Source: Chloroflexota bacterium (GTDB lineage Bacteria; Chloroflexota; Anaerolineae; Anaerolineales; E44-bin32). From it: a DNA stretch of 64,000 nucleotides. The number at the start of each line of letters is the position of its first letter. Positions within the stretch are counted from its first letter, which is position 1. Location: the NCBI GenBank assembly GCA_022561385.1, contig JADFRG010000007.1, positions 14,498-78,497 on the forward strand, given 5' to 3'. Below are positions 47,418-64,000 of the stretch, piece by piece. The notes under the pieces are model-generated. The model ran no database searches. It had not been told where the DNA came from and saw only the letters and a program-made list of their open reading frames with translations. The translations under genes and the position numbers were made by a program.

Positions 47418-47419
47418 AG

Positions 47420-49445: not shown

Positions 49446-51596
<2,151 letters not shown>

Positions 51597-52751: not shown

Positions 52752-53120
52752 ATGAAACGACCGGTCCACTTTGAGATTCTGTCCGACGACCCCGAAAAGC
52801 TGGCGGGCTTTTACGGGACCGTGTTCGGATGGGAGATCGCGACCATGGGTGGGGGTGAACAGTCTTATTGGCTGGCGACCACTGGCCCCGACGGAGAGCC
52901 CGGGATCAACGGGGGTTTCATGAACCGCGAGTTTGACCAGGCGGTGATCAACACTGTAGAGGTAGATTCACTTGAAGCCGCCACTGCCGAGATCGAAGCC
53001 GCGGGGGGCAAGCTGGTGCACGGGCCGAACGAGGTTCCTGGGGTTGGGACCCACGCCTACTTCGCCGATCCCCAAGGAATTATCTTTGGCGTAATGCAGC
53101 CCGTGACTCAAGATGATTAG
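52752..53120 (+). CDS. VOC (glyoxalase/bleomycin-resistance/dioxygenase) family protein
   Basis: 122 aa with VHFEI...FYGTVFGWEI...GTHAYFADPQGIIFGV. RBS GGGAGG. Confidence 0.8.
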   Translation: MKRPVHFEILSDDPEKLAGFYGTVFGWEIATMGGGEQSYWLATTGPDGEPGINGGFMNREFDQAVINTVEVDSLEAATAEIEAAGGKLVHGPNEVPGVGTHAYFADPQGIIFGVMQPVTQDD

Positions 53121-53412
53121 GTCTGGCTAGAGAGTCGGCTCCACGCAGTCACCGTTCACAATCTCAGCCCCCGGTTTCGATGACAGGCCGGTCCCCGCTG
53201 TTGATGCGTGGATGGTTCTAGATCGGGACCCGGGATGGATGCTACTCCGAAAACTCCTGCAAGGCTCAACTTATATTCGGGGCTCGGCCGAAGCACTAGA
53301 TTTGGCCTCGCGGTTGCGGATGCAGTCTCGTCGCGATAAGTTCATCAGACAAGCCGGGTTCTTCTGGCGAACCGCCGTATTTTCATCCGATTTGTAGGAG
53401 AGCAATCACATC

Positions 53413-53742
53413 ATGATCGCAATTCGCTCGATCAGCCTTTTTGTCGTGGCGGCGCTAGCCGAAATTTCTGGCGCTTACTTGATCTGGCAGTGGATCCGTG
53501 CCGGCAAGCCAGCCTTTTGGGGCCTGGTAGGTCTCATCGCCCTGTCGGTATACGCCGTGACACAGACTTTCCAGGAATTCAACTTCGGGCGGACTTTTGC
53601 CGCGTACGGCGGGATCTTTATTGCAACGGCACTGCTGTGGGGGTGGCTGGTAGAACGTCGAACGCCAGACCGCTGGGACTTCCTCGGGGTGAGCATTTGT
53701 CTATTAGGTGCTGCCATCATCCTCTGGGGCCCTCGCCGGTGA
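53413..53742 (+). CDS. ynfA: YnfA/UPF0060 family small membrane protein
   Basis: 109 aa, 4 TM, with the AEISGAYLIWQWIR and AYGGIFI motifs of the family. Confidence 0.8.
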   Translation: MIAIRSISLFVVAALAEISGAYLIWQWIRAGKPAFWGLVGLIALSVYAVTQTFQEFNFGRTFAAYGGIFIATALLWGWLVERRTPDRWDFLGVSICLLGAAIILWGPRR

Positions 53743-53867
53743 TATCGATGGTGGAATCCAGAGACAATCCCCAGCTGGCGAAACGAGTTACTGGATGGGC
53801 TCCAATATTTATCTTTGTGCGACTGGCTTGAGCGAACTCCACAGTTGGGGTAGTCATGTGTCGGCTA

Positions 53868-54305
53868 CTAAGCTCTGATAGCCGGGAGTAGTTCGTCTTC
53901 GATTCTTTGTTTTAGTTCGTCCCGAGCCGCGCGGAAGGCGCCTAATTTTTCGGCCTCGGACCCCACGACAGTTGAAGGATCCCTGATCGACCAGTGCCAA
54001 CGATGTTGGGCATATGGAAAGACGGGGCAGGACTCGTTGGCCTGATCGCAAACAGTAACTACATAATCAACGCGATCGTTTACAAATCCGTCCAAACTCT
54101 TCGAGACTTGATGATGGATGTCCACCCCAACCTCATCCATTGCGGCAATTGCTTCCGCGCGAACCTCACTCGCAACCGTCCCTGCGGACTGCACATAAAC
54201 GCCATCTCCGGCCAGATCTTTGAGTAGACCCTCGGCCATCTGAGACCTGGCGCTATTGTGTGTGCAAACGAAAAGCACCGTAGTTTTCGCGGACGATCTG
54301 CCCAA
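53868..54305 (-). CDS. arsC: Arsenate reductase, LMW-PTPase (thioredoxin-coupled) type
   Basis: VLFVCTHNSARSQMAEG (CX5R P-loop) plus downstream Cys residues (VTVCDQANESCP). Confidence 0.85.
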   Translation of the reverse strand: MGRSSAKTTVLFVCTHNSARSQMAEGLLKDLAGDGVYVQSAGTVASEVRAEAIAAMDEVGVDIHHQVSKSLDGFVNDRVDYVVTVCDQANESCPVFPYAQHRWHWSIRDPSTVVGSEAEKLGAFRAARDELKQRIEDELLPAIRA

Positions 54306-54551
54306 CTGGACCTCCCCTCTAGTTTAACCACGAACGGATTTTCCCATTCAAGAAAAACGGCAGCTAACCTTGATAATTTGGGGGTAAATATCGCGATTGG
54401 CGAGGAGATGTCGGCCCGGCTTCACAGAGGAAGCAGGCGCTCGGTGCCGGCTCAGGAGAAGTGAGGCGGAAAACCTACAAACTCGGCAACGCCCGTTCTC
54501 TTGCGCCCCCAGTCGTGACAGTAAATCTCCACTCAAACGCACGTGTGCTCG

Positions 54552-55649
54552 TCAATTCATACGGGTCGCGGCAATGTGTTGGGCTACGTACTGAGCATCG
54601 CGACCCACGCCGTAGAGGTCTTGAGAGGTAGCGGTGTATTGGTGCCTCATGCCAACGAAATACAGCCCAGGAGCAGCGGGCACCTGTCCGCGCTCGTGAA
54701 TCGGTTGCCCGGCCATATCGAATGTATCGTGTCTATTTAGTGGCTGGATGAAGTCGTATCGTGCTTGGAATCCGGTGCACCAAATTACGCTCAGAGACTC
54801 GAGCGGCACTGTTTCGCCGTCAGAGCAGAAAATACCGGCCGGGTTGAGCCCGCTCACCTTCCCGACAAGATTAACTCCATAGGTCTCTGCCAATTGACTG
54901 GGAGAGGGCGGCATCGTCCGGCCGCCTATGTCCGCCCGAAGTAGCTTTTTCCCCAGCCACGAATTCGGTTTGAGGTCCATGAGCCGAAACCACCTCATAA
55001 TTGTGTAAATTGGGATGCCTAGGACTTCAAAAGGAACGGTCAAGTTCCCGCTGACCGAGAGCGTGAGTTTGTCGAATCTCCCAGACCTGGCCAGGTCCTC
55101 ACATATCTGGACCCCACTGTTTCCACTGCCCACGATCAATACGTGCCCTTCCTCGATTTGGTCAGGATTTCGGTACTCGCGCGAATGAAGCTGGGGGATT
55201 GTTGATGGCAGCTCAGCGGCAACGAGAGGGAACTTGGGATTTCGAAAGGCGCCGGTGCAGATCACGACGTAGTCAGTTTCGTAGGTGAAATCTGGTGTCG
55301 CCACGCACCAGGTGTCGTGCTGAGTCTGTCTGACTGAAGTGGCCTCGGTGTGCTCACGTATCAAGGGATTGACCGCGGCAAGGTATGATTCGAAATATCG
55401 TAGGGCATCCGCTTTCATTCCCAACGCATCCCTGCTCGCTCCGGCCGCAAACTCCTCGGGGGAGCCGGGGAGCGAGTTCATCCAGTTGGCCGTGTTCATG
55501 TGGAACGAATCCCACCGACCGTACCATTCCGAGAATGCGCGGTCTTTCTCCAGGACCACGCTTTTAATTTGGCTTTGCTGTAGGAAGTAACTCGTAGCGA
55601 TGCCTGCCTGGCCACCTCCGACGATCACAGCCTCGACCGACCCTTCCAC
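54552..55649 (-). CDS. FAD/NAD(P)-dependent flavin monooxygenase-like oxidoreductase (ArsO-like by context)
   Basis: N-terminal VIVGGGQAGIA dinucleotide motif and a second GSGNSGVQI motif. It sits upstream of arsC on the same strand. Confidence 0.7.
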   Translation of the reverse strand: MEGSVEAVIVGGGQAGIATSYFLQQSQIKSVVLEKDRAFSEWYGRWDSFHMNTANWMNSLPGSPEEFAAGASRDALGMKADALRYFESYLAAVNPLIREHTEATSVRQTQHDTWCVATPDFTYETDYVVICTGAFRNPKFPLVAAELPSTIPQLHSREYRNPDQIEEGHVLIVGSGNSGVQICEDLARSGRFDKLTLSVSGNLTVPFEVLGIPIYTIMRWFRLMDLKPNSWLGKKLLRADIGGRTMPPSPSQLAETYGVNLVGKVSGLNPAGIFCSDGETVPLESLSVIWCTGFQARYDFIQPLNRHDTFDMAGQPIHERGQVPAAPGLYFVGMRHQYTATSQDLYGVGRDAQYVAQHIAATRMN

Positions 55650-56072
55650 AACCCTCGAACCCGCCGTCCTACGATTTTCCTAACCGCTGAATAAAGAGGA
55701 TAAACGCTCCGTATCGACTCGCCGCCACATATTATGCGGCAAAGTCTGCCCATTTAAGGTTACGAGCATTCCTTTCCACTCCACTGAGCTCTATCGACAA
55801 TCTACCAGGAACTTTAATTCGCAGGACTCGTGCGAGTGCCTGGGTCCGCGAATTTAGCTCATCACTAAAAATAGAAATCCAGGTGGTTCATATAGGTAGA
55901 CGAGATCAAATTTGCGATCATATCTTTCCGCGCTCGGATTCTGATCCATCCATCTCGGGGGTTGAGATTTGGTACCCGAACTTCCTCCCTCTCGGACCTG
56001 TATGGGACGCCGACTCCACCAGTGATTTCACGCAGCTGGGAACAGCTAACCGGGATGTACAGCCAGATTCCC

Positions 56073-56101
56073 TTGACAGACAGATGGGCCTACCCTATTA
56101 T
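56073..56101 (+). promoter_or_regulatory. Near-consensus sigma-70-type promoter for the mer cluster (TTGACA-17 nt-TATTAT)
   Basis: TTGACA at 56073-56078, a 17-nt spacer, and TATTAT at 56096-56101, about 70 nt upstream of merA ATG 56174. Confidence 0.55.
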
Positions 56102-56117
56102 ACCCATAGGGGGTATA
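56099..56117. promoter_or_regulatory. Inverted repeat TATACCC-N5-GGGTATA, a candidate CsoR-family operator overlapping the -10 element
   Basis: Perfect 7-bp arms. G/C-tract-centred TACCC...GGGTA repeats resemble CsoR operators as I recall them from Bacillus copZA. A CsoR-family gene lies in the same cluster. Confidence 0.5.
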
Positions 56118-56173
56118 GGGATGTAAGAAGATCGGAAGTCCCTGCATCCAAAAACATGGAAGTTGAGGAGAAT

Positions 56174-57838
56174 ATGGCAGGACAAGAGAAAATAAGTTTC
56201 GACATCCGAGGGATGACCTGTCCCTCGTGCGAGGTGCACGTTGCGAACGCAATAAAAAGCGTCGAGGGCGTGTTATCGGTCGAGATTCCCGGATGGGAAT
56301 CCTCAGAGGCGGAGGTGGTCGCCGAGCAAGGGATCGATGCCAAATCGTTTGCAGAGGCGGTTCTACAGGCAGGCTATGGAGCCAGCGTTAGGGCGCGGCA
56401 ACCAGTAGATGGAAAGACAAGCTCTAATGGAAAAGGCGATGGCCGGTTCGACCTGATGGTGATCGGAGGGGGCTCAGCCGGCTTCGCGGCCGCCATCAAA
56501 GGCGCCGAACTGGGTTTCAAAGTGGGCCTGGTGGAGGCGGGTGAGATCGGAGGCACCTGTGTGAACGTGGGGTGCATCCCGTCCAAGACCCTCATCCGGT
56601 CGGTGGAGCTGTATCACCAGGCCGGGCAAGAGAGATTCAAGGGGATCAGCACCTCCCAGGGACCGATCGACTGGCCCCAGGTTATAGATCACAAGGATGA
56701 GCTCGTACGCGATCTTCGGAAGGCGAAGTACTCGGACGTGCTGAAGGCTTATCCCGAGATCACCTATATCCAGGGTACAGCAACGCTGCGTGGGGGCAAT
56801 GAGCTGGAGATCGACGGCGAGGCGTATGCACCGGGAAAAATAATTATTGCCGCCGGCGCAAGCCCGTGGGCGCCTCCGATCCCCGGGCTCGCCGAATCTG
56901 GATACCTGGATAGCACGGCCGCCTTAGATCTCAGAGAGATCCCCGAATCGCTGATCGTGCTCGGTGCGAACGCGGTGGGCCTGGAGATCGCGCAGATCTA
57001 CGCTAGGGCAGGAACCAACGTCACGGTTTTAGAAGTGCTGCCTCGAATTGCGCCGTTTGAAGACGAGGAAATCAGTGCCGCCCTGACTGGATACTTGGAG
57101 AACGAAGGCTTACAAATTGTGACCGGATTTCAGACCGCCTCCGTGGAGAAAGCGGAAGGACGCTACACGTTGCGTGGGACCCAGGATGAGGCCGACTTGA
57201 CTTTCGAAGCTGAGCAGCTGCTGGTGGCCACGGGGCGACGCCCAAATACGACCGGTCTCGGTTTGGAAGAGGCGGGAGTCAAGCTCGGTAAGCGTGGGGA
57301 AATCGTTGTCGATGAGCACCTCGCGACCGACAATCCGGAGGTTTACGCGGTTGGCGATATCCTCGGGCGGGATATGTTTGTTTATGTTGCAGCTTACGAC
57401 GGAATCCTGGCGGCCGAGAATGCGCTAAGCCAGGCCGGCCGAGTCTACGACGCCGATTACATCGCCCGCATAACGTTCACGGACCCGCAGATCGCCTCCG
57501 CAGGGCTGACCGAGGCACAGGCCCGAGAGCGGGGCTATGAAGTTAAGGTCAGCACGCTCGAGATGAAACACGTCCCGCGTGCCCTGGCGGCGCGCGACAC
57601 CCGTGGACTTATCAAGCTGGTGGCGGACGCCTCCACAGATCGCCTGCTCGGGGCGCACATTCTCGCGCCGGAAGCAGGAGAGATGATTCAGACCGCAGTA
57701 ATGGCCATCAAGTTCGGCATAACGGTGAGTGAGATGAGGAGCATGATGTTTCCTTATCTCACCAACGCGGAAGGCCTGAAACTAGCGGTGTTGGCCTTCG
57801 ATAAAGACGTCGCCATGCTGAGCTGCTGCGCGGGGTGA
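56174..57838 (+). CDS. merA: Mercuric reductase MerA with an N-terminal HMA (NmerA) domain
   Basis: RBS GAGGAG 4 nt upstream of ATG 56174. GMTCPSC HMA motif, GGTCVNVGCIPSK redox disulfide, YVAAYDG, FPYLT (Tyr instead of His), and the C-terminal LSCCAG pair. Confidence 0.9.
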   Translation: MAGQEKISFDIRGMTCPSCEVHVANAIKSVEGVLSVEIPGWESSEAEVVAEQGIDAKSFAEAVLQAGYGASVRARQPVDGKTSSNGKGDGRFDLMVIGGGSAGFAAAIKGAELGFKVGLVEAGEIGGTCVNVGCIPSKTLIRSVELYHQAGQERFKGISTSQGPIDWPQVIDHKDELVRDLRKAKYSDVLKAYPEITYIQGTATLRGGNELEIDGEAYAPGKIIIAAGASPWAPPIPGLAESGYLDSTAALDLREIPESLIVLGANAVGLEIAQIYARAGTNVTVLEVLPRIAPFEDEEISAALTGYLENEGLQIVTGFQTASVEKAEGRYTLRGTQDEADLTFEAEQLLVATGRRPNTTGLGLEEAGVKLGKRGEIVVDEHLATDNPEVYAVGDILGRDMFVYVAAYDGILAAENALSQAGRVYDADYIARITFTDPQIASAGLTEAQARERGYEVKVSTLEMKHVPRALAARDTRGLIKLVADASTDRLLGAHILAPEAGEMIQTAVMAIKFGITVSEMRSMMFPYLTNAEGLKLAVLAFDKDVAMLSCCAG

Positions 57839-57943
57839 GACGGAAAAACCCAGGGTTCGTCGGCTGAAGCAGGAGTTGCTCGATTGGTGATAGTCCCCTT
57901 ATTGCCCCCATCCGCCGAAGTCTTTCGGATAGGAGAGAACAAA

Positions 57944-58210
57944 TTGTCGTCAACTAAATCGAACGCGGTACCGATTACATTCAAAGTAATGGGAATGAGC
58001 TGCATTGACTGCACGCCGTTGATTACAGACTATCTGAGCGCCCAGCCGGGGGTACTGGAAGCAGCGGCCGACTATGAAGGCGGGAAGGTTATGGTGACCT
58101 ATCAACCGGAGCGTACTTCGCCCGAGGACCTGGCGCGGGCCATAATCGCCTCAGGCACATCCACCGACTGGAAGCACGAATTTAACCCGATCCTGGAGCC
58201 CGCATCCTGA
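57944..58210 (+). CDS. Heavy-metal-associated (HMA) domain metallochaperone-like protein
   Basis: GMSCIDC motif in a ferredoxin-like roughly 70-aa domain. TTG 57944 is preceded by GGAGAG. The track start at 57884 is also possible. Confidence 0.7.
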   Translation: MSSTKSNAVPITFKVMGMSCIDCTPLITDYLSAQPGVLEAAADYEGGKVMVTYQPERTSPEDLARAIIASGTSTDWKHEFNPILEPAS

Positions 58211-58235
58211 TCCGCGGTTCCTCCACGAAGAGAAT

Positions 58236-59156
58236 TTGCCTGGCGGCCGTCCGGATCCTCAGCGTATTCGCCGCGTGACGTCTACTGCCGGTGATACTTC
58301 TACGCGAAAAGGAACTACGCATCGACCGATCCAAAATGGAGGGACAAGGACCTCGATAAGACCAATCCTGTCCGCCTTGGTACTCGTATTGGTGGCAACG
58401 GCGTGCAGCTCGCGCTTCCTGCCCGTCGGCGACGTCCCTGAACCAGCAGCTCAGCTCAGGGCGCAGCCTGAAGTGGAAGACCAGGCGTTGGAGGTTTCCC
58501 CGGCTGAAAGTGGTTTCTCCGGAAGCCCCAGCTCGACTCCGGACGAGATTGTTCTCAGTCCGACTCCGGTTCCGGTCGCGCCCCAGCCTGTTCCGGATTT
58601 TGTCGGACAGGAAGTGGAGGAACCCGCGGATCCCGCAGTCCTGGCCGAGATCGGGGTGTTTGCCGAGATGCGCGACAACCTGGCCAGCGGGGACCTGGCG
58701 CCGGACTTCGAAGTGCGTGCGATCGGAAACTGGACCTTCAGCCTCTCTGCCCAGCGCGGCTCCTATGTGCTCGTGGTACCGACCGCCATTGGATGCGGAG
58801 AGTGCGTCTTCACCATGAATCAGTTGGCCGCGGCCTACCCGGATTACCGTGACAAGAATTTGCAGCTGGTGCTTATAAACATGTATCCGGAGGATGAGCC
58901 TAAGTCCTGGGACGCCTATGTGGAGGCCTACCCTGATTTAGGTGCCGTATGGGGAGTGGTCTCATCGGTCAATTTTGTTGTGGACTATGACATCCGGTCG
59001 CTGGGGACGATCCTGCTGGTCGATCCGGAAGGTAAGCTGGTCTTCCGAAGCGACTTCCCACTGATCGAAGAGGAACTCCGTCAGCTCTTCGACCTGGCCA
59101 CGAGTGGAAAGTCTGAGGTCTCGGAGATCTCAAGTCCGATGCCGGTGATTATCTAA
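58236..59156 (+). CDS. TlpA/ResA-like thioredoxin-fold lipoprotein (Cys form, C-G-E-C)
   Basis: TM/lipobox LVLVATAC, a long acidic/Pro-rich linker, then SYVLVVPTAIGCGECVF and a cis-Pro-region-like GTILLVDPEGK. The start codon is uncertain. Confidence 0.7.
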   Translation: MPGGRPDPQRIRRVTSTAGDTSTRKGTTHRPIQNGGTRTSIRPILSALVLVLVATACSSRFLPVGDVPEPAAQLRAQPEVEDQALEVSPAESGFSGSPSSTPDEIVLSPTPVPVAPQPVPDFVGQEVEEPADPAVLAEIGVFAEMRDNLASGDLAPDFEVRAIGNWTFSLSAQRGSYVLVVPTAIGCGECVFTMNQLAAAYPDYRDKNLQLVLINMYPEDEPKSWDAYVEAYPDLGAVWGVVSSVNFVVDYDIRSLGTILLVDPEGKLVFRSDFPLIEEELRQLFDLATSGKSEVSEISSPMPVII

Positions 59157-59157
59157 T

Positions 59158-59988
59158 ATGACCTCTGAAGACACTCAAGCCGTCGAGCCGAGACCTACCC
59201 CTTCTGGCTGGCTATACCCCGTCGTGGGGCTGCTGGCGTTTGCGGCGATCGGCGTGGGCTCATGGATCTTCCGCTCAGGAAATCTGGCGGCGCTTCCTCT
59301 GGCCTGGGCCTTCTCGGCCGGCATGCTGGCTACGGTCAACCCCTGTGGGTGGGCCATGCTGCCTTCCTATGGAGCCTACTATCTCGGCTCGCGCGAGGCA
59401 GGTTACGAGCAGCGGCCGTTAATTCTCCGCGGCGCGGAAGGATTCCGTCTAGGGCTGCTGATGACGGCTGGCTTTCTGGCTGTATTCAGCGTGGTGGGGG
59501 CGATCATCTCGCTCGGCCTACGCGTGCTGATCCAGGCCATGCCCTTTCTTGCCATCCTGGTCGGCGCTGGATTGGTAGGTCTCGGACTGTGGCTGCTTTT
59601 CGGAGGCTCGCTGCGACTTTCCATCCCAACTCCAAAAATCCAGGCGCAGGCGCGCAATCCGAAATCAGTATTCTTGTATGGAATGGCCTACGGATTCGCC
59701 TCACTTAGCTGCACCCTGCCAATCTTTATGGTCGTGATTGGCAGCAGTCTGGCAACCGGCACGCCGGGCGAGGCGGCGGTTATGTTTGGCAGTTTCGGAG
59801 CTGGAATGGCGCTGGTCCTGATGGCGGTGGTCATCAGCATCGCGCTCGTGAAAGGAGCCATCGTCGAACAAGTACAGGCCGTGCTCCCGTACGTGCACCG
59901 GTTTGGCGCAGCACTGCTTGTGTTTGCGGGCGCCTACCTGATCTGGTATCAAGCCCGTTACTTGCCATTTTTCCTTTCCACGTTCTGA
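59158..59988 (+). CDS. ccdA: CcdA/DsbD-family transmembrane thiol-disulfide electron transporter
   Basis: Polytopic, with two membrane-embedded Cys motifs: VNPCGWAMLP and SLSCTLPIF. Confidence 0.8.
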   Translation: MTSEDTQAVEPRPTPSGWLYPVVGLLAFAAIGVGSWIFRSGNLAALPLAWAFSAGMLATVNPCGWAMLPSYGAYYLGSREAGYEQRPLILRGAEGFRLGLLMTAGFLAVFSVVGAIISLGLRVLIQAMPFLAILVGAGLVGLGLWLLFGGSLRLSIPTPKIQAQARNPKSVFLYGMAYGFASLSCTLPIFMVVIGSSLATGTPGEAAVMFGSFGAGMALVLMAVVISIALVKGAIVEQVQAVLPYVHRFGAALLVFAGAYLIWYQARYLPFFLSTF

Positions 59989-60007
59989 TAAGGCCCTATC
60001 TACGTCG

Positions 60008-60580
60008 ATGCCTGGCACTAAAAGCAAACCTAACTTACGGCCACAACGCTGGAGGCAAGCCGCACGTCGACGAGGCGTGTTGTGGGCTGTGGTGGGCGGG
60101 CTGGGTTTATTCGTGGCCTGGCAGGTGATTTCCAACCCATTGCCGACCACCAAAGCACAGTCCCTGGCCGGTCTGGCTCCGGACATTACGCTGACGACCC
60201 AACAGGGGGAATACCGCCTATCCGAGCAGAAGGGGGAGACGGTCGCGCTCTTCTTCGCGTTTGTAGGTTGACCGAGCTGCGCGCGGGAGGTTCCCGCGCT
60301 CAATCGAATTCGAGCGGAATTCGGCGTTCAGGTGGTAGCGATCAATCTCTTGCCGCAATACAACAGTCTCGAGGAGTGGCAAGCTTTTCTTGGGGAATTT
60401 GGCGCGACCGATTTCGTATGGGCCGCGGACACCTATGACCAGCTTGCTTCGCGGACTTATAACGTTCGGTCATTGGGCACCACGATCATCATAGACCGCG
60501 AGGGGCAGATGGTTTATCGGGACGAGGTGGCCAGCACGTATGAGATGTTAAAGCCGGCCGTGTTGACCGCTCTGGACTAG
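60008..60580 (+). CDS. TlpA/ResA-like membrane-anchored thioredoxin-fold protein, predicted selenoprotein (G-U-P-S-C; TGA 60269-60271 read as Sec)
   Basis: ORFs 60008-60271 and 60332-60580 share one frame with TGA as the only stop between them. The joined sequence reads ...GETVALFFAFVG-U-PSCAREVPALNRIRAEFG...GTTIIIDREGQ, which matches the FWAxWCxPCxxExP redoxin context. Confidence 0.7.
60281..60299 (+). promoter_or_regulatory. Candidate bacterial SECIS hairpin for UGA 60269
   Basis: GCGCGGG(A)-GGT-(T)CCCGCGC, a 7-8 bp GC stem with a GGU-containing loop about 17 nt after the UGA. Confidence 0.5.
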
Positions 60581-60600
60581 GGGATTGGAAGGAAGTTAAG

Positions 60601-60879
60601 ATGGAGAATTCCTGGATATCGATCAAAGGTTATGTGATGGGTGCCTTGGCCTTCATCTCCTGCCCCTGTCACCTGCCGATTACCCTGCCACTGCTTGTGG
60701 TTGTTACAGCCGGCACCGCCTTCAGCGCCTGGCTGCAAAACAACTTGTTCGCCGTCGGCGGCGCGTCGACGGTGTTTTTCGTCGGCTCCTTGGTGCTGGC
60801 AATCAGATGGAGCGGCAGGCGGGCTCGCGTCCGCCATCGTGTAGAATCGACGATGCGACCACAGAAGCTCATCAAGTAA
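60601..60879 (+). CDS. merE: MerE-like small mercury transporter
   Basis: Two TM helices. GALAFISCPCHLPITLPLL closely resembles the MerE LTCPCHLPIL motif, recalled from Tn21 MerE. Confidence 0.65.
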   Translation: MENSWISIKGYVMGALAFISCPCHLPITLPLLVVVTAGTAFSAWLQNNLFAVGGASTVFFVGSLVLAIRWSGRRARVRHRVESTMRPQKLIK

Positions 60880-60892
60880 GGGAGGTAGAAAA

Positions 60893-61198
60893 ATGTCTGT
60901 CGCCACAGCGCCACCGCTTACAACCTATCTCGATCCAGAACTGATTGGAAACCTGCAAAATCGACTCAATCGCATCGAGGGATCTGTTCGCGGCGTCAAC
61001 CGCATGCTGGAAGACCATGAAAACTGCGACGATATCGTCGTGCAGCTATCGGCGATCAAAGCTGCCGTGAATCAGGTCACGATTAAGCTGTTGGAAGGAC
61101 ACATGAACACCTGCCTGCTTGAGTGCGCGGCCACGGGCGACCTGGAAGCGCTTGAACATTTCAGGCGCTCCATGGCGCTTGTGATGAAGAACTCGTGA
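60893..61198 (+). CDS. CsoR/RcnR/FrmR-family metal-sensing transcriptional repressor (C-H-C fingerprint)
   Basis: 101 aa with L.NRLNRIEGSVRGV.RM (DUF156 signature). The ligand positions are ENC...H-x3-C (GHMNTC). Confidence 0.85.
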   Translation: MSVATAPPLTTYLDPELIGNLQNRLNRIEGSVRGVNRMLEDHENCDDIVVQLSAIKAAVNQVTIKLLEGHMNTCLLECAATGDLEALEHFRRSMALVMKNS

Positions 61199-61310
61199 GG
61201 TAGGTCTGGTCGAGATTACCAGCTAACCGGGCCCCGGGAAAACGGGATAGAGTCGGCATTGTCGGGACGGTTAGCAGTATCTATTTCGAGCGGCGGGCGC
61301 AATAAAAAAA

Positions 61311-61511
61311 GTGACGAAGACGGATGAATGTCCCTATTGCACGGAAATGCTCGCGCCGGATCTGCTGCACATCTGCCCCGTAGGATGCTGCTACGTTGAG
61401 GGGTATGAGGGCAAAGAAAAGGTCAAATGCTCATACTGTGAACTGCCGTTCGAAATCTTGGCAGGACACGCCTGTTTCGAGCTCATCGCGCTGACCGAAC
61501 CTGCGCAGTAG
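61311..61511 (+). CDS. Small Cys-rich protein (9 Cys in 66 aa; CxxC...CxxxCC...CxxC...C), function unknown
   Basis: GTG start. The ORF is followed by a strong terminator. The zinc-ribbon-like Cys spacing reads CPYC...CPVGCC...CSYC...C. Confidence 0.45.
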   Translation: MTKTDECPYCTEMLAPDLLHICPVGCCYVEGYEGKEKVKCSYCELPFEILAGHACFELIALTEPAQ

Positions 61512-61565
61512 CACGCGCATGGAGCAAGCGCTCGCGCACCGACTTCTGCAAACACCGAGCATTCA

Positions 61566-61592
61566 CTCCACCCTTCGAGGTGGAGTTTTATT
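61566..61592 (+). terminator. Rho-independent terminator ending the merA...Cys-rich operon
   Basis: CTCCACC-CTTCGA-GGTGGAG followed by TTTTATT. Confidence 0.7.
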
Positions 61593-61665
61593 ACGACTGC
61601 GCGGGGGCGAGTTTGAATCCTGCCCCTAGACGCCACCGGCACTCCGACCTATTTGGAGGATCCAG

Positions 61666-63042
61666 ATGAGCGATGCATACGATGTCGCGGTAATCGGCGC
61701 GGGACAAGGCGGTCTGCCGGCCGCACACATGGCGGCCAATTTGGGCGCCAAAGTCCTTCTCGTAGAGGATCGGGAGGTGGGCGGAACTTGAGTGAATGAG
61801 GGGTGCATCCCCACTAAGACCTTGTTAAGGTCTGCCGAAGTTATGCACTTGGTACGAGATCGATCGGCCGAGTTTGGCGTGCGCGGAATCGATCCCAAGA
61901 GTGTCTCGTTCGATCTGGCAGCCGCGGTGGCCCGAAAGGATAACATCGTGGCCGGGATCCAGGCCGGGATCTACAAAAACCTGGATCGAAACAAGAACAT
62001 CACCTTTATGAAGGGCCATGCGGAATTCACCTCACCGGTCGACATTCGGATCGACGGCACGCTGGTGACGGCCGAAAATAGCGTCCTGGCGGTTGGCTCC
62101 CAGCCTGCGCCGTACGCCATTCCCGGCCTAAAAGAGGCTGGATTCATCACAAATTACGAAGCGCTCAAGCTGGAAGAGCTCCCCAACTCCATGATTGTTA
62201 TCGGGGGCGGATACGAGGGAGTGGAGTTTGCCCAGATGTACGCTCGCTACGGTACGGCGGTCACAATGCTCGGACGTGCGCCACGCGTGATGCCTAAGGA
62301 GGAGCCCGAACTCTCTGAGAAGCTGGGCGACATACTCCGGGAGGAAGGCGTGGATCTCCACACTTCGACCGAAGTGGTTCGAGCGGGCGCGGAGAACGGC
62401 GCGCGTTTCGTTTTGGTGCGAGAGGCGGGGTCTGAGCGACGTTACGAAGCGGAGGTCTTGCTGCTGGCGGTTGGCCGCAACGCCCGAGTCGAGAATCTGG
62501 GTTTGTCAGAGGCGGGGGTGGAGATGGATGGGCCCTATGTGGGTGCAGACCGGCGCTTGCGAACGTCGGCAAGCAACATCTGGTCGCTCGGCGACGCCAA
62601 TGGCGGGCTTATGTTTACCCACCGAGCCACCTACGACGGCCCCATTGCAGCGCTCAACATCGTGAAAGCCCTGGGCCGGGAGGTGGATTACCGAGTGGTG
62701 CCGAGGGCAGTCTTTACGGAGCCTACCCTGGCGAGCGTCGGCCTGACCGAGGCCGAGGCGAGGGCTCAAGGCCATGAAGTGAGGGTAGGAACCGCGGATT
62801 TTGCCGGATCAGGTCGGGCGAAGGCCATCGGCCTGCCGGTCGGGATGGTTAAGCTGATTGCAGACGACGGCACGGGGGAGCTGCTAGGTGGCCACATCCT
62901 TGGACCCCGGGCCGACGATCTAATCCACGAAGTGGTTACCGCCATGTACAAGAAAGGTTCAGCAGAAGCGATCGCCAAATCCATACACGTGCATCCGACC
63001 CTGAGCGAGGTCGTGAAGCGGGCCGCGAAAGCACTGCGATGA
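61666..63042 (+). CDS. Class I pyridine-nucleotide disulfide oxidoreductase (Lpd/GR-like), predicted selenoprotein with Sec in the redox-active pair (GGT-U-VNEG-C-IPTK; TGA 61789-61791)
   Basis: ATG 61666 lies 5 nt after GGAGGA. Its N terminus is MSDAYDVAVIGAGQGG...LVEDREVGGT, then TGA, then in the same frame VNEGCIPTKTLL... (ORF 61792-63042). The C terminus has the HVHPTLSE His-Glu dyad and no MerA-type CC tail. Confidence 0.7.
61817..61833 (+). promoter_or_regulatory. Candidate bacterial SECIS hairpin for UGA 61789 (alternative: 61791-61815)
   Basis: AGACCTT-GTT-AAGGTCT (7 bp stem, GUU loop) lies about 33 nt after the UGA. A second possible structure, AGUG/CACU plus GGG-UGCAU-CCC, starts directly after the UGA. 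Confidence 0.4.
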
Positions 63043-63238
63043 ATCCGGGACGGTCGGCGACCACGGGCCGATCATGTGGCAACCCACCATCAAATTGGGG
63101 ACCGCCCCGGGCGCGCTGCGCCTCGGGTATGTGGTTTCCCTTCGTAGCTTAGCGGCAACGATGGAACTCTTAGAATGGTCTCATTTAGGACGCACGTAAT
63201 CGCAGTTCGCGATATGCTAGGATTTTGCGGGAGGCGAG

Positions 63239-63850
63239 ATGACCAAATCCACGCGCGAGAGAATTGAAGCAAAGAGACGCAAAGGGCGTGCACGAGGCAT
63301 AATTATCGGTGTACTTATCGCGGTTCCCGCGATCGCGGGGGTCGCGTGGCTGGCTAACCAGGCCAGCGGGCGTCGAAGCGGTGAGTTTGTTGAGATCCCG
63401 CAGGTCCAGGTAGTGGAGGTGATGAGCAGTGCGGCGCACGTCGCCGACGACACCGATCCCGGGCCCTACAATTCGGATCCTCCGACCTCAGGCAGGATGT
63501 ACGTTTCGCCAGCGGTGGCGGGGTTCAATGACGTTGGAGACGTGGAATCGTTCGGCGAATATCCAGCCGGCTCACTTGTACACAGCCTGGAGCACGGACA
63601 CGTTATCTTCTGGTACAACTGCGACGTACTCAGTCAGTCTGAGTGCGAGGCCATGAAGGACGGGATCAAGCAAGTCATACGCGCGGCCGGCACCTTTAAG
63701 GTGATCGCCTTCCCGTGGCCTTCGATCGAGGAACCGCTTGTGATGACCTCCTGGGGCCGAATGCTCCGCTTTGATGAATTTGACGCCGAGATCGCCGAGC
63801 AATTCGTAAGAAACTTCCGCCTGCAGGCCCCTGAACCGAACGCGCCTTAG
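63239..63850 (+). CDS. DUF3105 domain membrane-anchored protein
   Basis: N-terminal TM, then YNSDPPTSGRMY and LVHSLEHGHVIFWYN motifs characteristic of DUF3105. Confidence 0.75.
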   Translation: MTKSTRERIEAKRRKGRARGIIIGVLIAVPAIAGVAWLANQASGRRSGEFVEIPQVQVVEVMSSAAHVADDTDPGPYNSDPPTSGRMYVSPAVAGFNDVGDVESFGEYPAGSLVHSLEHGHVIFWYNCDVLSQSECEAMKDGIKQVIRAAGTFKVIAFPWPSIEEPLVMTSWGRMLRFDEFDAEIAEQFVRNFRLQAPEPNAP

Positions 63851-63884
63851 AGAATAACCATCAATTAACCGGATATAGCATCGC

Positions 63885-63916
63885 GAAAAAAAAACCAGCC
63901 CCATAAAGGGCTGGTT
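63885..63916 (-). terminator. Rho-independent terminator for a minus-strand gene entering from the right edge of the window
   Basis: The minus strand reads AACCAGCCC-TTTATG-GGGCTGGTT followed by TTTTTTTTT. Confidence 0.55.
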
Positions 63917-64000
63917 GCATTATTGGCCCTGAGAAGTTTTGGTTCAGGCCTGCTCCAGCTTTGGCGGATAACGGCTCTCCATCCACAAGCGCAATCCCAG

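What the first reader, a model, noticed from the sequence alone, without database searches (positions are those of the whole stretch)
60008..60580. TlpA/ResA-like redoxin with a UxxC active site, encoded directly after ccdA
Two track ORFs (60008-60271 and 60332-60580) lie in one frame and are interrupted only by TGA 60269-60271. The read-through gives VALFFAFVG-U-PSCAREVPALNRI, which is the FWAxWCxPCxxExPxL redoxin context. A GC-rich hairpin (GCGCGGGA-GGT-TCCCGCGC) with a GGU loop lies about 17 nt downstream, inside the usual bacterial SECIS window. The protein has an N-terminal membrane anchor, so the selenol would face the outside of the cell, next to a Cys-form paralog (58236-59156) and the CcdA reductant conduit.
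Basis: partly seen in the sequence, partly recalled or inferred. Interest (0 to 1): 0.7.

Follow-up and report, generated by a model that had tools for sequence, protein, structure and literature searches.

The report
Selenocysteine redoxin in a mercury-resistance operon
The two short ORFs are almost certainly one gene for a membrane-anchored, outward-facing thioredoxin-fold protein that carries selenocysteine in place of its catalytic cysteine, and it sits, with a second probable selenoprotein, inside a mercury-resistance operon, where a 2022 selenoprotein cataloguing paper said it had found no examples.

Summary
The TGA at 60269-60271 joins two in-frame ORFs into a 190-aa TlpA/ResA-like redoxin. 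The TGA falls exactly on the first Cys of the CxxC motif.

- **Conservation:** the TGA is kept in all 7 close relatives and in 10 of 10 distant relatives whose DNA I read. There is purifying selection on both sides (dN/dS 0.1-0.25).
- **SECIS:** an 8-bp hairpin with a GGU or GGC loop starts 9 nt after the UGA. It is kept through compensatory changes and is far better paired than synonymous recodings of the same peptide.
- **Ordinary stop use:** TGA ends 18 of 41 other genes in the window.
- **Sec trait:** the window holds two more Sec-type TGAs (28231, 61789).
- **Not shown:** no selA, selB, selD or tRNA-Sec lies in the window.

This is not a cytochrome-maturation ResA. The redoxin plus CcdA pair recurs in mercury-resistance operons, and the whole subfamily lacks the cis-proline typical of thiol:disulfide reductases. 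That points to Hg(II) capture.

UxxC redoxin selenoproteins are already catalogued, so this is a new member of a known kind. The mer-operon setting, and the neighbouring Lpd-like flavoprotein with a UxxxxC site, are the more novel parts.

The parts
60008..60580 (+). Complete selenoprotein gene: a 190-aa membrane-anchored thioredoxin-fold redoxin, read through the in-frame TGA
   Evidence: One frame with a single internal TGA. Pfam Redoxin 2.4e-12 and AhpC-TSA 6.6e-12 across residues 57-177, spanning the TGA. dN/dS 0.10-0.28 on both sides of the TGA.
60269..60271 (+). UGA codon read as selenocysteine (U88), the first residue of the U-P-S-C active site
   Evidence: Aligns with the first Cys of CxxC in PDB ResA/DsbE/TlpA-type proteins and in 107 of 109 covering homologue domains. 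TGA is kept in L001-L007, in L008 and L010-L017, and in the first tandem copy in L018.
60278..60280 (+). TGC codon for Cys91, the resolving or second metal-ligand residue of UxxC
   Evidence: Invariant Cys in all aligned homologues that cover it (109 of 109).
60281..60299 (+). SECIS-like hairpin: stem 60281-60288 pairs with 60292-60299, loop GGU 60289-60291
   Evidence: Present in the MFE structure. Across 11 distinct Sec-form sequences 96.6% of cells are paired, 3 of 8 pairs show changes on both sides, and the covariation score is 0.332 against 0.138 for shuffles (0 of 500 reach it). Observed pairing is 7-8 of 8 against 3.6-5.1 expected from synonymous recoding (P about 0.002-0.007 for 10 of 11; 0.07 for L008).
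60074..60130 (+). N-terminal transmembrane anchor (residues 23-41), preceded by a strongly basic cytoplasmic tail
   Evidence: Highest 19-residue hydropathy window, mean 1.92. Residues 1-23 hold 8 K/R and no D/E. The topology is inferred from the positive-inside rule.
60476..60478 (+). Gly157 codon at the position of the thioredoxin-fold cis-proline
   Evidence: Aligned to the cis-Pro (MPT, VPE, LPT, IPT) in 4 of 4 PDB alignments. Across 159 aligned homologue domains this column is D 66, G 59, E 14 and P only 12.
59158..59988 (+). CcdA/DsbD-family membrane protein with Cys in NPCGW and SLSCTLP motifs; the partner of the redoxin, ending 19 nt before it
   Evidence: Homologues at 55-65% identity carry PF02683 and are named CcdA. 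57% identical to the L023 DsbD_TM protein. 34-39% identical to CcdA genes inside the S. aureus and Mycolicibacterium mer operons.
60601..60879 (+). MerE-like small membrane protein with a CPC motif, immediately downstream
   Evidence: Pfam MerE 39.1 bits (cut-off 22.8). NCBIfam MerE 43.6 bits, below its cut-off of 80.
56156..57838 (+). Canonical mercuric reductase MerA (NmerA HMA domain, CVNVGC, C-terminal LSCCAG); the start codon is uncertain (56156 or 56174)
   Evidence: NCBIfam TIGR02053 MerA 552 bits, above the cut-off of 454. Pfam HMA and Pyr_redox domains. Sequence.
57884..58210 (+). Small HMA-domain (CxxC) metal-binding protein
   Evidence: Pfam HMA 3.9e-10.
58236..59156 (+). Cys-form (CGEC) thioredoxin-fold paralogue, probably a lipoprotein; it also lacks the cis-Pro (SLGTILLVD)
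   Evidence: Pfam AhpC-TSA 6e-08. 28% identical to the Sec redoxin. An orthologue occupies the same place in L023.
60893..61198 (+). CsoR/RicR-family metal-sensing repressor with the C45-H70-C74 ligand pattern
   Evidence: Pfam Trns_repr_metal 1.7e-22. NCBIfam RicR 62 bits, below cut-off. Ligand spacing was read from the sequence.
61666..63042 (+). Second probable selenoprotein of the operon: an Lpd-like flavoprotein disulfide reductase, GGT-U-VNEG-C-IPTK, with TGA at 61789-61791 and hairpin AGACCUU-GUU-AAGGUCU at 61817-61833
   Evidence: Sequence. With Cys substituted it scores 422 bits on TIGR01350 (cut-off 408.8). The TGA is kept in L001, L002, L023 and L024. The best 120 homologue clusters are all N-truncated gene calls.

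Best explanation
ORFs 60008-60271 and 60332-60580 are one gene. Its UGA (60269-60271) is decoded as selenocysteine with the help of a SECIS hairpin inside the coding sequence (60281-60299). The product is a 190-residue protein with a basic cytoplasmic tail, one membrane anchor and an outward-facing thioredoxin-fold domain whose active site is U88-P-S-C91.

It is the selenocysteine form of a TlpA-like protein that, with a CcdA-family membrane protein, forms a recurring module of mercury-resistance operons in monoderm bacteria (Staphylococcus, actinomycetes, Chloroflexota).

Proposed mechanism:
1. The CcdA-family protein carries reducing equivalents from cytoplasmic thioredoxin across the membrane and keeps the selenol/thiol pair reduced in the oxidising exterior.
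2. The reduced selenolate-thiolate pair captures Hg(II), and possibly organomercurials, outside the membrane. This is helped by the missing cis-proline, which normally shields the CxxC from metals.
3. Hg(II) passes by ligand exchange to the paired cysteines of the MerE-like and/or CcdA-like membrane proteins. It then goes to the cytoplasmic HMA protein or NmerA domain and to MerA, which reduces it to Hg(0).

**Shown here:** gene structure, conservation of the UGA, position of the UGA on the catalytic Cys, conserved and covarying hairpin, mer-operon linkage, and loss of the cis-proline.

**Inferred:** actual Sec insertion, topology, electron flow through CcdA, and Hg binding and hand-off.

My estimates: Sec decoding about 0.93; a role in the mer system about 0.75; direct Hg(II) capture rather than pure disulfide reduction about 0.45.
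For: **Sec decoding.**
- The in-frame TGA sits on the first Cys of CxxC.
- It is retained in 7 of 7 close loci at 80-98% amino-acid identity.
- It is retained in all 10 distant homologue genes whose DNA was read, at 39-67% identity over the part after the TGA.
- dN/dS is 0.15-0.28 upstream and 0.10-0.17 downstream, in the same frame.
- 48 of 150 family representatives are C-terminal fragments that begin just after the active site, the usual footprint of mis-called Sec genes. All 93 full-length ones carry a CxxC motif, and every domain that covers the TGA column has Cys there except two.
- The hairpin covaries and beats synonymous recoding. A distant Cys form (L023) pairs at chance level, 4 of 8.
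- TGA is the ordinary stop of 18 of 41 genes in the window, so the code is not reassigned.
- Two more Sec-type TGAs with hairpins lie in the same window.

**Mer role.**
- The gene is tightly spaced within MerA / HMA / Cys-redoxin / CcdA / U-redoxin / MerE-like.
- The TlpA + CcdA pair lies inside merR-...-merA of S. aureus pHKS3860, beside merB in Mycolicibacterium, and in MerR/MerA/MerB operons of Chloroflexota L023 and L018.
- In L015 it lies directly after a gene whose product ends ...LSCCAA, the MerA-type C-terminus.
- A review lists TrxA- and CcdA-domain proteins as 'mercury transporter' in actinomycete mer loci (PMC12195606).

**Metal binding.**
- The cis-Pro is replaced by Gly, Asp or Glu across the subfamily.
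[quoted passage not shown] 2007).
Against: - No selA, selB, selD or tRNA-Sec lies in the 64-kb window, and the rest of the genome could not be searched.
- No Rfam SECIS family matches.
- Folding of the single sequence is not significantly better than shuffles.
- Two Cys-form relatives (L018, L019) retain 7 of 8 pairs of the hairpin. Part of the hairpin therefore reflects shared ancestry or the conserved E-[AV]-P peptide, not Sec decoding alone.
- No experiment shows that any TlpA + CcdA mer module binds or transports Hg. The 'mercury transporter' labels are annotations.
- Hg-Se bonds are very strong, so a selenolate could trap Hg(II) rather than pass it on.
- The regulator in this operon is CsoR-like, not MerR, and a DUF3105 gene (copper-island type) lies nearby.
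Confidence: 0.6

Rival explanations
1. It is a selenoprotein, but it acts only as a conventional extracytoplasmic thiol:disulfide reductase (ResA/TlpA-like) fed by CcdA. It keeps the cysteines of other envelope proteins reduced, such as the MerE-like importer, the Cys-redoxin lipoprotein or Hg-damaged thiols. It does not bind the metal itself.
For: Closest solved relatives are ResA, DsbE and TlpA reductases. It has a CcdA-family partner. Sec in UxxC redoxins is generally read as a catalytic enhancement (PMC13188914). The mer-operon small membrane proteins carry Cys pairs that must stay reduced outside a monoderm cell.
Against: The cis-Pro that forms the polypeptide-substrate site of such reductases is missing throughout the subfamily. 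Scores fall far below the ResA and TlpA family cut-offs (47.5 against 170; 29.5 against 230).
Confidence: 0.28
2. The module serves copper homeostasis or cuproprotein assembly rather than mercury. This would resemble TlpA reducing ScoI and CoxB, or the CcdA-TlpA-DUF305-DUF3105 islands of actinomycetes.
For: A CsoR/RicR-type repressor with the Cu(I)-type C-H-C pattern lies in the operon. A DUF3105 gene lies at 63239-63850. A CcdA-TlpA-DUF305-DUF3105 cluster exists on Pseudarthrobacter plasmid pACHL02.
Against: Direct linkage to canonical MerA here and in L001, L002 and L015, and to MerR, MerA or MerB in L018, L023, S. aureus and Mycolicibacterium. No Sco, CopA or CopZ gene lies in the cluster.
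Confidence: 0.07
3. The TGA is a true stop. The locus is then a pseudogene, or it encodes two separate polypeptides: an 87-aa anchored fragment and an 82-aa fragment starting at GTG 60332.
For: Gene callers treat it this way, and database entries are split fragments. No Sec machinery was seen in the window.
Against: The same 'nonsense' codon is kept at the same active-site position in 18 homologue genes spanning 39-98% identity (the window, 7 close loci and 10 distant genes). The 20 codons between the TGA and the GTG lie in no ORF, yet they are conserved and hold the invariant second Cys. Purifying selection acts on both halves. A split at the CxxC would destroy the fold.
Confidence: 0.03
4. 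The TGA is read through as a standard amino acid (Trp, Cys or Gly), either by near-cognate suppression or by a reassigned genetic code, not as Sec.
For: Read-through of the codon is clearly selected for, but the inserted residue was not determined.
Against: TGA terminates 18 of 41 Pfam-supported genes in the window. The codon replaces a redox-active Cys at all three sites. A conserved, covarying hairpin sits at SECIS distance. Chloroflexota are known Sec users (PMC1794560; PMC5736913).
Confidence: 0.02

Closest known systems
[quoted passage not shown]
   Same: Thioredoxin or redoxin fold. Sec replaces the N-terminal Cys of CxxC. A SECIS hairpin follows directly in the coding sequence. Cys-form homologues coexist. 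Databases usually show these genes as truncated ORFs.
   Different: I could not establish whether this exact subfamily is one of those listed. It matches no selenoprotein-specific NCBIfam model above cut-off. It is defined by F[ST]F[VP]G-U-P[ST]C (AEC in L015 and L016), by loss of the cis-Pro (L-[GD]-T-T), by a membrane anchor, and by linkage to CcdA and mer genes. None of these is mentioned for the catalogued families.
ResA/TlpA/CcmG with CcdA/DsbD: the extracytoplasmic reductive pathway for cytochrome c and CuA maturation
   Same: A membrane-anchored outward-facing Trx-fold protein encoded beside a CcdA-family membrane protein with two Cys in transmembrane helices. These are the closest solved structures.
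   Different: Sec replaces Cys. The cis-Pro is absent. Scores are far below the ResA and TlpA cut-offs. No ResB/ResC/Ccs genes lie nearby, and the neighbours are MerA, HMA and MerE-like genes.
TlpA-like + CcdA-like module of monoderm mer operons (S. aureus pHKS3860 merR-hyp-TlpA-CcdA-merA; Mycolicibacterium merB-hyp-redoxin-CcdA; 'mercury transporter' TrxA/CcdA proteins of actinomycetes)
   Same: The same two-gene module sits next to a small Cys-pair membrane protein inside mer operons. The CcdA proteins are 34-39% identical and the redoxins 20-28% identical, and they also lack the cis-Pro.
   Different: Those are Cys forms. Here, and in many metagenomic relatives, the first Cys is Sec. The regulator here is CsoR-like rather than MerR. 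The function of the module has not been tested, as far as I could find.
MerP/MerT Hg(II) uptake of Gram-negative mer operons, with their rare Sec forms (MerP and MerT-like selenoproteins in the GOS and Carboxydothermus lists)
   Same: The proposed job is the same: an extracytoplasmic dithiol (here selenol-thiol) site takes Hg(II) and passes it to membrane Cys pairs and then to MerA. Sec in Hg-handling proteins has precedent.
   Different: The fold is unrelated: thioredoxin fold rather than the HMA ferredoxin-like fold. It is a functional analogue at most, not a family member.
SaoT thioredoxin-like selenoprotein of the SAO organometallic system (Haft and Gwadz 2022, bioRxiv 10.1101/2022.07.06.499078)
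   Same: A Trx-like UxxC selenoprotein in an operon with several selenoproteins and MerB-related chemistry. Its authors also suspect direct metal interaction rather than ordinary redox activity.
   Different: SaoT is a small (about 85 aa) protein in a different operon (saoTECXLBPAD) of anaerobes, and its authors argue that operon is not a resistance system. The present gene lies in a bona fide merA operon, a setting for which those authors reported 'no examples' of selenoproteins.

Membership tests
Bacterial selenoprotein gene (UGA-Sec with downstream SECIS) | In-frame UGA at a position occupied by a (redox-active) Cys in homologues | tested here: met
   The first Cys of CxxC in 4 of 4 PDB alignments, and Cys in 107 of 109 covering homologue domains.
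Bacterial selenoprotein gene (UGA-Sec with downstream SECIS) | Coding conservation continues in the same frame downstream of the UGA, and the UGA is conserved in orthologues | tested here: met
   TGA is present in 7 of 7 close loci and in all 10 distant genes read. Downstream dN/dS is 0.10-0.17.
Bacterial selenoprotein gene (UGA-Sec with downstream SECIS) | Stem-loop following the UGA, with the apical loop about 16-37 nt downstream and a G (usually GU) in the loop. This is the bSECISearch-type consensus, quoted from my own knowledge. | tested here: met
   The 8-bp stem starts 9 nt after the UGA and the GGU/GGC loop lies at +17. Covariation. Synonymous-recoding control. No Rfam family match.
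Bacterial selenoprotein gene (UGA-Sec with downstream SECIS) | The genome encodes selA, selB, selD and tRNA-Sec | not testable with these tools
   None lie in the 64-kb window. Indirect support: two more Sec-type TGAs in the window and Sec-containing formate dehydrogenases in Anaerolineae.
Bacterial selenoprotein gene (UGA-Sec with downstream SECIS) | Selenium demonstrably incorporated at the UGA | not testable with these tools
   Needs 75Se labelling or mass spectrometry.
TlpA/ResA/CcmG-type thiol:disulfide oxidoreductase (cd02966) | Thioredoxin fold with C(U)xxC at the start of helix 1, and sequence membership of the redoxin clan | tested here: met
   Pfam Redoxin 47.3 bits (cut-off 26.6), AhpC-TSA 45.9, Thioredoxin_8 30.7. 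Best PDB hits are DsbE, ResA and TlpA.
TlpA/ResA/CcmG-type thiol:disulfide oxidoreductase (cd02966) | Conserved cis-proline before strand beta-3, facing the CxxC | tested here: not met
   Gly157 aligns with the cis-Pro in 4 of 4 PDB alignments. The subfamily column is D 66, G 59, E 14, P 12 out of 159. The importance of this residue is described in PMC2757866.
TlpA/ResA/CcmG-type thiol:disulfide oxidoreductase (cd02966) | Reaches the curated family score for ResA, TlpA or DsbE | tested here: not met
   ResA 47.5 bits (cut-off 170), TlpA 29.5 (230), DsbE 25.1 (123).
TlpA/ResA/CcmG-type thiol:disulfide oxidoreductase (cd02966) | Extracytoplasmic location through an N-terminal anchor, and a CcdA/DsbD partner | tested here: met
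   Anchor and positive-inside pattern (a prediction only). A CcdA-family gene ends 19 nt upstream.
TlpA/ResA/CcmG-type thiol:disulfide oxidoreductase (cd02966) | Genomic link to cytochrome c or CuA maturation genes (resB/resC, ccs, sco) | tested here: not met
   Neighbours are MerA, HMA, MerE-like, CsoR-like and PNDO genes. No such maturation genes occur in L001, L002, L018 or L023 either.
mer (mercury resistance) operon accessory module (TlpA-like + CcdA-like) | Encoded within or adjacent to an operon with canonical merA | tested here: met
   MerA scores 552 bits on TIGR02053 (cut-off 454) and has NmerA and a C-terminal CC. Intergenic gaps across 57838-60893 are 1-46 nt.
mer (mercury resistance) operon accessory module (TlpA-like + CcdA-like) | The same module recurs in independent mer operons | tested here: met
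   S. aureus, Mycolicibacterium, Chloroflexota L023 and L018, L015, L001 and L002.
mer (mercury resistance) operon accessory module (TlpA-like + CcdA-like) | Hg(II)-responsive MerR regulator | tested here: not met
   No MerR lies in the window cluster; a CsoR/RicR-like repressor is present instead. MerR is present in L018, L023 and L024.
mer (mercury resistance) operon accessory module (TlpA-like + CcdA-like) | Binds or transports Hg(II), or is required for resistance | not testable with these tools
   Only annotation-level statements were found (PMC12195606).
MerP (periplasmic Hg(II)-binding protein) | HMA (ferredoxin-like) fold with GMTCxxC | tested here: not met
   No HMA hit; the fold is thioredoxin-type. 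Any relationship would be functional analogy only.

The most novel reading that the evidence does not exclude
Bona fide mercury-resistance operons of Anaerolineae, and in part of Marinimicrobia, depend on selenium. They encode two selenoproteins.

1. An outward-facing U-x-x-C thioredoxin-fold protein that has lost the cis-proline and acts as a selenolate Hg(II) receptor.
2. An Lpd-like flavoprotein disulfide reductase with Sec as the interchange residue of the redox-active UxxxxC. It is often next to merB. It is absent from the 2022 and 2026 selenoprotein catalogues, and all of the best 120 database clusters show it as an N-truncated gene call.

This would contradict the published remark that no selenoprotein involved in mercury resistance had been found (Haft and Gwadz 2022).
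Probability: 0.5. Interest if true: 0.75.

Novelty: new member of a known kind. Interest (0 to 1): 0.55.

Why it matters
UxxC redoxin selenoproteins are a well-populated class, so the Sec codon alone would not surprise a specialist. Three things add value.

1. **Setting.** The selenoprotein sits inside a canonical merA operon, together with a second probable selenoprotein. Authors cataloguing selenoproteins for NCBI's PGAP annotation pipeline wrote in 2022 that they had found no selenoprotein involved in mercury resistance, and that relying on selenium there would be a 'strange design'. Hg-Se chemistry at the cell surface is directly relevant to how microbes capture and detoxify mercury.

2. 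**A testable prediction.** The whole mer-linked TlpA-like subfamily, Sec and Cys forms alike, has replaced the cis-proline. That predicts a metal-binding thioredoxin fold and gives a function to the unstudied TlpA + CcdA module of staphylococcal and actinomycete mer operons.

3. **Annotation.** About a third of the representatives of this family, and all of the best 120 relatives of the neighbouring flavoprotein, are stored in databases as truncated fragments. Recognising the Sec codons would correct many annotations.

Tried and rejected
- **Rfam scan of 55000-64000 at E <= 10:** no SECIS family, only three chance hits. Bacterial SECIS elements are poorly covered, so this is not counted against the finding.
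- **Word-indexed protein search with the read-through protein:** no hit at all.
- **Full-library HMMER search with the read-through sequence:** I ran it with the 102 residues after the TGA instead.
- **Direct family assignment of the upstream membrane protein:** Pfam at E <= 10, NCBIfam and PDB sequence searches found nothing. The CcdA assignment rests on homologues.
- **Sec machinery in the window:** ARAGORN found only tRNA-Lys. Pfam annotation of 55 ORFs found no SelA, SelB or SelD.
- **tblastn of the redoxin against plasmids:** only generic TlpA/ResA hits at about 30% identity. The CcdA query was what led to the mer operons.
- **Literature on transport genes of the pI258 or actinomycete mer operons:** the key 1987 paper is not held, and other searches gave annotation-level statements only.
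- **Single-sequence folding as a significance test:** rejected as uninformative (z -1.7, -1.5 and -0.8 for the three hairpins).
- **Hairpin as a mere by-product of the peptide:** considered and rejected on the recoding control. Two Cys forms do keep a 7-of-8 hairpin, so the hairpin is not exclusive to Sec forms.
Full report
**1. What is in the sequence.**

The region reads as the first-stage reader described. ORF 60008-60271 (87 aa) and ORF 60332-60580 (82 aa) lie in one frame, and the only stop between 60008 and 60580 is TGA 60269-60271. Reading through gives a 190-residue protein...GETVALFFAFVG-U-PSCAREVPALNRIRAEFGVQVVAINLL....

With Cys in place of the stop, the protein matches Pfam Redoxin (2.4e-12), AhpC-TSA (6.6e-12) and Thioredoxin_8. 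The matches cover residues 57-177, so they span the TGA.

Its best solved relatives are DsbE, ResA and TlpA-type thiol:disulfide oxidoreductases. In all four printed alignments the TGA position falls on the first Cys of the WCxxC motif.

Residues 23-41 form a single hydrophobic segment after a tail with eight Lys/Arg and no acidic residue. This predicts an N-in, C-out anchored protein.

The hairpin GCGCGGGA-GGU-UCCCGCGC (60281-60299) is part of the minimum-energy fold. On a single sequence, however, the fold is not significantly better than shuffles (z = -1.72).

**2. Is the TGA translated?**

*Close relatives.* A scan of one genome per species found two relatives, both in Anaerolineae MAGs: BTQZ01000004 at 80% and JBGMQN010000069 at 86% amino-acid identity. 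A metagenome scan found five more loci at 81-98% identity. All seven keep TGA at the same codon. Among the four diverged sequences, dN/dS is 0.15-0.28 for the 63 codons before the TGA and 0.10-0.17 for the 102 codons after it, in the same frame.

*Distant relatives.* A full HMMER scan with the 102 residues after the TGA found 157 relatives. Of the 150 listed:
- 93 are full length and contain a CxxC motif.
- Cys fills the TGA column in 107 of the 109 aligned domains that cover it.
- 48 are short fragments that begin just after the active site.

I read the DNA for nine such fragments, at 39-67% identity. All nine have an in-frame TGA at the same site, in the context F[ST]F[VP]G-U-P[ST]C (AEC in L015 and L016, and NATG-U-PSC in L017). 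A tenth case is the first of two tandem paralogues in L018, which has the TGA in a more divergent context (SSQE-U-PTC); the second copy is a Cys form.

*Other readings.* A nonsense mutation or a split gene cannot explain this. The 20 codons between the TGA and the next start codon lie in no ORF, yet they are conserved and contain the invariant second Cys. TGA is also the normal stop of 18 of 41 Pfam-supported genes in the window, so the genetic code is standard.

**3. The SECIS-like hairpin.**

In 11 distinct Sec-form sequences an 8-bp stem begins 9 nt after the UGA, with a GGU or GGC loop.
- 96.6% of cells are paired, against 32-61% when the 3' partners are slid by 1-3 columns.
- Three of eight pairs show changes on both sides (for example G-C to U-A, and C-G to U-A or G-C).
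- The covariation score is 0.332, against 0.138 for shuffled partners; 0 of 500 shuffles reach it.

Five of the eight pairs involve a third codon position, so I recoded each peptide with synonymous codons drawn from the window's codon usage. The observed 7-8 pairs compare with a mean of 3.6-5.1. P is about 0.002-0.007 for ten of the eleven sequences and 0.07 for one.

A distant Cys form in a syntenic operon (L023, WCGTC) pairs at chance level, 4 of 8. Two Cys forms close to the Sec clade (L018, L019) still have 7 of 8 pairs. I read these as residual hairpins, but it means the hairpin is not exclusive to Sec forms. Rfam has no matching family.

**4. Does the organism decode Sec?**

This could not be tested directly. 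The window holds only tRNA-Lys, and none of the 55 ORFs scanned against Pfam is SelA, SelB or SelD. The indirect evidence is good.

A mechanical scan for TGA-joined ORFs turned up two more cases at redox-active cysteines.
- **28231-28233:** a thioredoxin-like lipoprotein, FFAFW-U-PTC, with hairpin GCCCGU-CGUGC-ACGGGC.
- **61789-61791:** an Lpd-like flavoprotein, GGT-U-VNEG-C-IPTK. This TGA is kept in L001, L002, a Chloroflexota genome (L023) and a Marinimicrobia genome (L024). Its hairpin AGACCUU-GUU-AAGGUCU changes to GACGCU-GUU-AGCGUC in L023, with two compensatory pairs.

Chloroflexota are recorded Sec users (PMC1794560), and marine Anaerolineae carry Sec-containing formate dehydrogenases (PMC5736913).

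**5. What the locus is.**

The gene is one of a tightly spaced set:

| Coordinates | Gene | Evidence |
|---|---|---|
| 56156-57838 | MerA (NmerA domain, CVNVGC, C-terminal LSCCAG) | TIGR02053 552 bits, cut-off 454 |
| 57884-58210 | HMA protein | Pfam HMA |
| 58236-59156 | Cys-form redoxin (CGEC) | Pfam AhpC-TSA |
| 59158-59988 | CcdA-family protein | homologues |
| 60008-60580 | Sec redoxin | this finding |
| 60601-60879 | MerE-like CPC protein | Pfam MerE |
| 60893-61198 | CsoR/RicR-like repressor | Pfam Trns_repr_metal |
| 61311-61511 | small Cys-rich protein | no family |
| 61666-63042 | Sec flavoprotein | TIGR01350 |
| 63239-63850 | DUF3105 | Pfam DUF3105 |

 Arsenic-type genes lie upstream here and downstream in L001 and L002.

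The CcdA-family protein led to annotated plasmids.
- In S. aureus pHKS3860 the order is merR, a small CC-motif membrane protein, a TlpA-family protein, CcdA, merA, and a flavoprotein.
- In a Mycolicibacterium plasmid it is merB, a small CC-motif protein, a redoxin, and CcdA.

In Chloroflexota genome L023 the order is MerR, MerA, HMA, Cys-redoxin lipoprotein, Cys-form TlpA-like, CcdA, MerE-Trx fusion, Sec flavoprotein, MerB. This is syntenic with the window, but with Cys where the window has Sec. L018 has MerA, HMA and MerR, then the Sec redoxin, a Cys redoxin and CcdA. In L015 the Sec redoxin follows a gene whose product ends ...LSCCAA.

A review tabulates TrxA- and CcdA-domain proteins of actinomycete mer loci as 'mercury transporter' (PMC12195606). 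I found no experimental test of that label.

**6. A feature that separates this subfamily from ResA/TlpA.**

In all four PDB alignments the cis-proline that faces the CxxC (MPT, VPE, LPT, IPT) aligns with Gly157 of this protein. Across 159 aligned homologue domains that column is Asp 66, Gly 59, Glu 14 and Pro only 12. The staphylococcal, mycobacterial and Pseudarthrobacter mer-linked proteins and the window's own Cys paralogue also lack the proline.

The cis-proline is reported to be more conserved than the CxxC itself in thioredoxins and cytochrome-maturation proteins. It is thought to form the polypeptide-substrate site and to prevent metal binding by the CxxC (PMC2757866, citing Su et al. 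2007).

The protein also falls far below the curated ResA, TlpA and DsbE scores. No cytochrome-maturation genes are nearby. It has the fold and the CcdA partner of a TlpA/ResA protein, but it fails two defining features of that functional family.

**7. Most likely mechanism.**

I commit to the following, with the shown and inferred parts marked.

- **Shown:** one gene; UGA on the catalytic Cys; conserved and covarying hairpin; mer linkage; loss of the cis-proline.
- **Inferred:**
  - The UGA is read as Sec.
  - The domain faces outward.
  - The CcdA-family protein keeps U88/C91 reduced.
  - The selenolate-thiolate pair, unshielded by a cis-proline, captures Hg(II).
  - Hg(II) is passed to the Cys pairs of the MerE-like and/or CcdA-like proteins, then to the HMA protein or NmerA domain and to MerA.

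My estimates are 0.93 for Sec decoding, 0.75 for a role in the mer system, and about 0.45 for direct Hg capture.

The main rival (0.28) is a pure reductase that keeps other envelope thiols reduced. A copper role (0.07) is suggested by the CsoR-like regulator and DUF3105, and by a CcdA-TlpA-DUF305-DUF3105 cluster on a Pseudarthrobacter plasmid. It is outweighed by the repeated MerA, MerB and MerR linkage. A true stop and a non-Sec read-through together get about 0.05.

**8. Comparison with what is known, and novelty.**

UxxC thioredoxin-fold selenoproteins are well catalogued. [quoted passage not shown] Sec forms of MerT-like and MerP proteins and of HgcA and HgcB are also listed. The finding is therefore a new member of a known kind.

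I could not tell whether this exact subfamily is among those already listed. No selenoprotein-specific NCBIfam model matches it above cut-off.

The setting appears to be unreported. [quoted passage not shown] Here two probable selenoproteins sit in a canonical merA operon.

**9. The neighbouring flavoprotein.**

This may be the more novel item.
- With Cys substituted it passes the dihydrolipoyl dehydrogenase model: 422 bits against a cut-off of 408.8. It scores below the MerA cut-off.
- It keeps the HPTLSE His-Glu dyad of disulfide reductases and lacks MerA's C-terminal Cys pair.
- Sec sits at the first Cys of the CxxxxC. In Lpd and glutathione reductase that is the interchange thiol (my own knowledge).
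- All of the best 120 homologue clusters, down to about 60% identity, are 376-425-aa N-truncated gene calls.
- Four relatives were checked at the DNA level, and all have the TGA.
- In L023 and L024 it lies next to merB.
- Neither review lists an Lpd-, MerA- or glutathione-reductase-like UxxxxC selenoprotein.

**10. Limits.**

- Nothing here shows selenium in the protein.
- The Sec machinery was not found, because only 64 kb of the genome was available.
- Topology and all functional steps are inferences.
- The nine fragments I checked were chosen to span the identity range; they are not a random sample.
- The cis-proline assignment rests on sequence alignment, because the read-through protein could not be submitted for structure prediction.

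Noticed in passing
window 61666-63042 (TGA 61789-61791; hairpin 61817-61833); also L001 about 3902-5277, L002 about 9987-11362, L023 9878-11251, L024 6183-7559: A second probable selenoprotein in the same operon. It is an Lpd-like class-I flavoprotein disulfide reductase with Sec at the first Cys of the redox-active CxxxxC (GGT-U-VNEG-C-IPTK). It has the HPTLSE dyad and no C-terminal Cys pair. The best 120 database relatives are all N-truncated gene calls. It lies next to merB in Chloroflexota and Marinimicrobia genomes. It is not listed in the 2022 or 2026 selenoprotein reviews.
   Followed up: partly
window 27895-28473 (TGA 28231-28233; hairpin 28254-28270): A third Sec-type TGA, in a thioredoxin-like lipoprotein (lipobox LLAAAC) with ...VEFFAFW-U-PTC-RAMAP.... 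With Cys substituted the best NCBIfam hit is thioredoxin (5.7e-12). Conservation in other genomes was not checked.
   Followed up: partly
window 60470-60490 (S-L-G157-T-T-I-I); homologues P0001-P0150: The whole mer-linked redoxin subfamily, Sec and Cys forms alike, has replaced the thioredoxin-fold cis-proline with Asp, Gly or Glu (L-[DG]-T-T). The staphylococcal and actinomycete mer-operon TlpA proteins and the window's Cys paralogue (SLGTILLVD) also lack the proline.
   Followed up: yes
L018 4358-5579: Tandem paralogues in one mer locus. A Sec form (…FYSSQE-U-PTC…, with a different, bulged hairpin GGGUGG-UGUAU-CCA[U]CCC) is followed directly by a Cys form (…AIPG-C-PTC…) and then by a CcdA-like gene.
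   Followed up: partly
L018 about 5262-5310; L019 about 2262-2310: Two Cys-form relatives keep 7 of 8 pairs of the SECIS-type hairpin. These may be residual ('fossil') SECIS elements left by recent Sec-to-Cys conversion. They could also mean that part of the hairpin is imposed by the conserved C-x-x-E-[AV]-P peptide.
   Followed up: partly
window 60893-61198: The regulator inside this mer cluster is a CsoR/RicR-family repressor with the Cu(I)-type C45-H70-C74 pattern, not MerR. L001, L002 and L010 share it, whereas L018, L023 and L024 have MerR.
   Followed up: no
window 61311-61511; L001 3528-3746; L002 9614-9832: A conserved 66-72-aa Cys-rich protein (CPYC...CP..CC...CPYC...HxC) lies between the repressor and the Sec flavoprotein. 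It matches no protein family and may be a small metal-binding or zinc-ribbon protein.
   Followed up: no
window 60601-60879; L001 2439-2969; L023 9363-9872; L002 8525-8872: The MerE-like CPC membrane protein is 92 aa in the window. In L001 (176 aa) and L023 (169 aa) it is fused to a C-terminal thioredoxin/glutaredoxin-like CxxC domain. The L002 copy (115 aa) looks truncated within that domain.
   Followed up: no
L021 4232-4570; L022 4167-4472; L019 670-969: In staphylococcal, mycobacterial and metagenomic mer loci a small (about 100 aa) membrane protein precedes the TlpA + CcdA pair. It has a vicinal CC in its first helix, and in two of the three loci a second Cys cluster. It is probably the counterpart of MerT, MerF or MerE.
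   Followed up: no
window 52752-55649; L001 5552-7559; L002 11635-13645: The mer cluster is embedded in a wider metal(loid) island. An ArsC-type low-molecular-weight phosphatase (53868-54305), a flavin monooxygenase-like gene (54552-55649) and a glyoxalase-like gene lie upstream here. ACR3-like (by sequence resemblance, not scanned), ArsC and ArsR-like genes lie downstream in L001 and L002.
   Followed up: no
window 36653-51596: tatC, parB, parA, jag, yidC and gyrB are clustered here. The window is therefore chromosomal and probably near the replication origin, not on a plasmid or mobile element.
   Followed up: no
one search compared: The word-indexed protein search returned no hit for the read-through redoxin, while the exhaustive HMMER scan found 157 relatives with only the C-terminal 102 residues. 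Fragmented Sec genes seem to be poorly reached by the indexed search.
   Followed up: no
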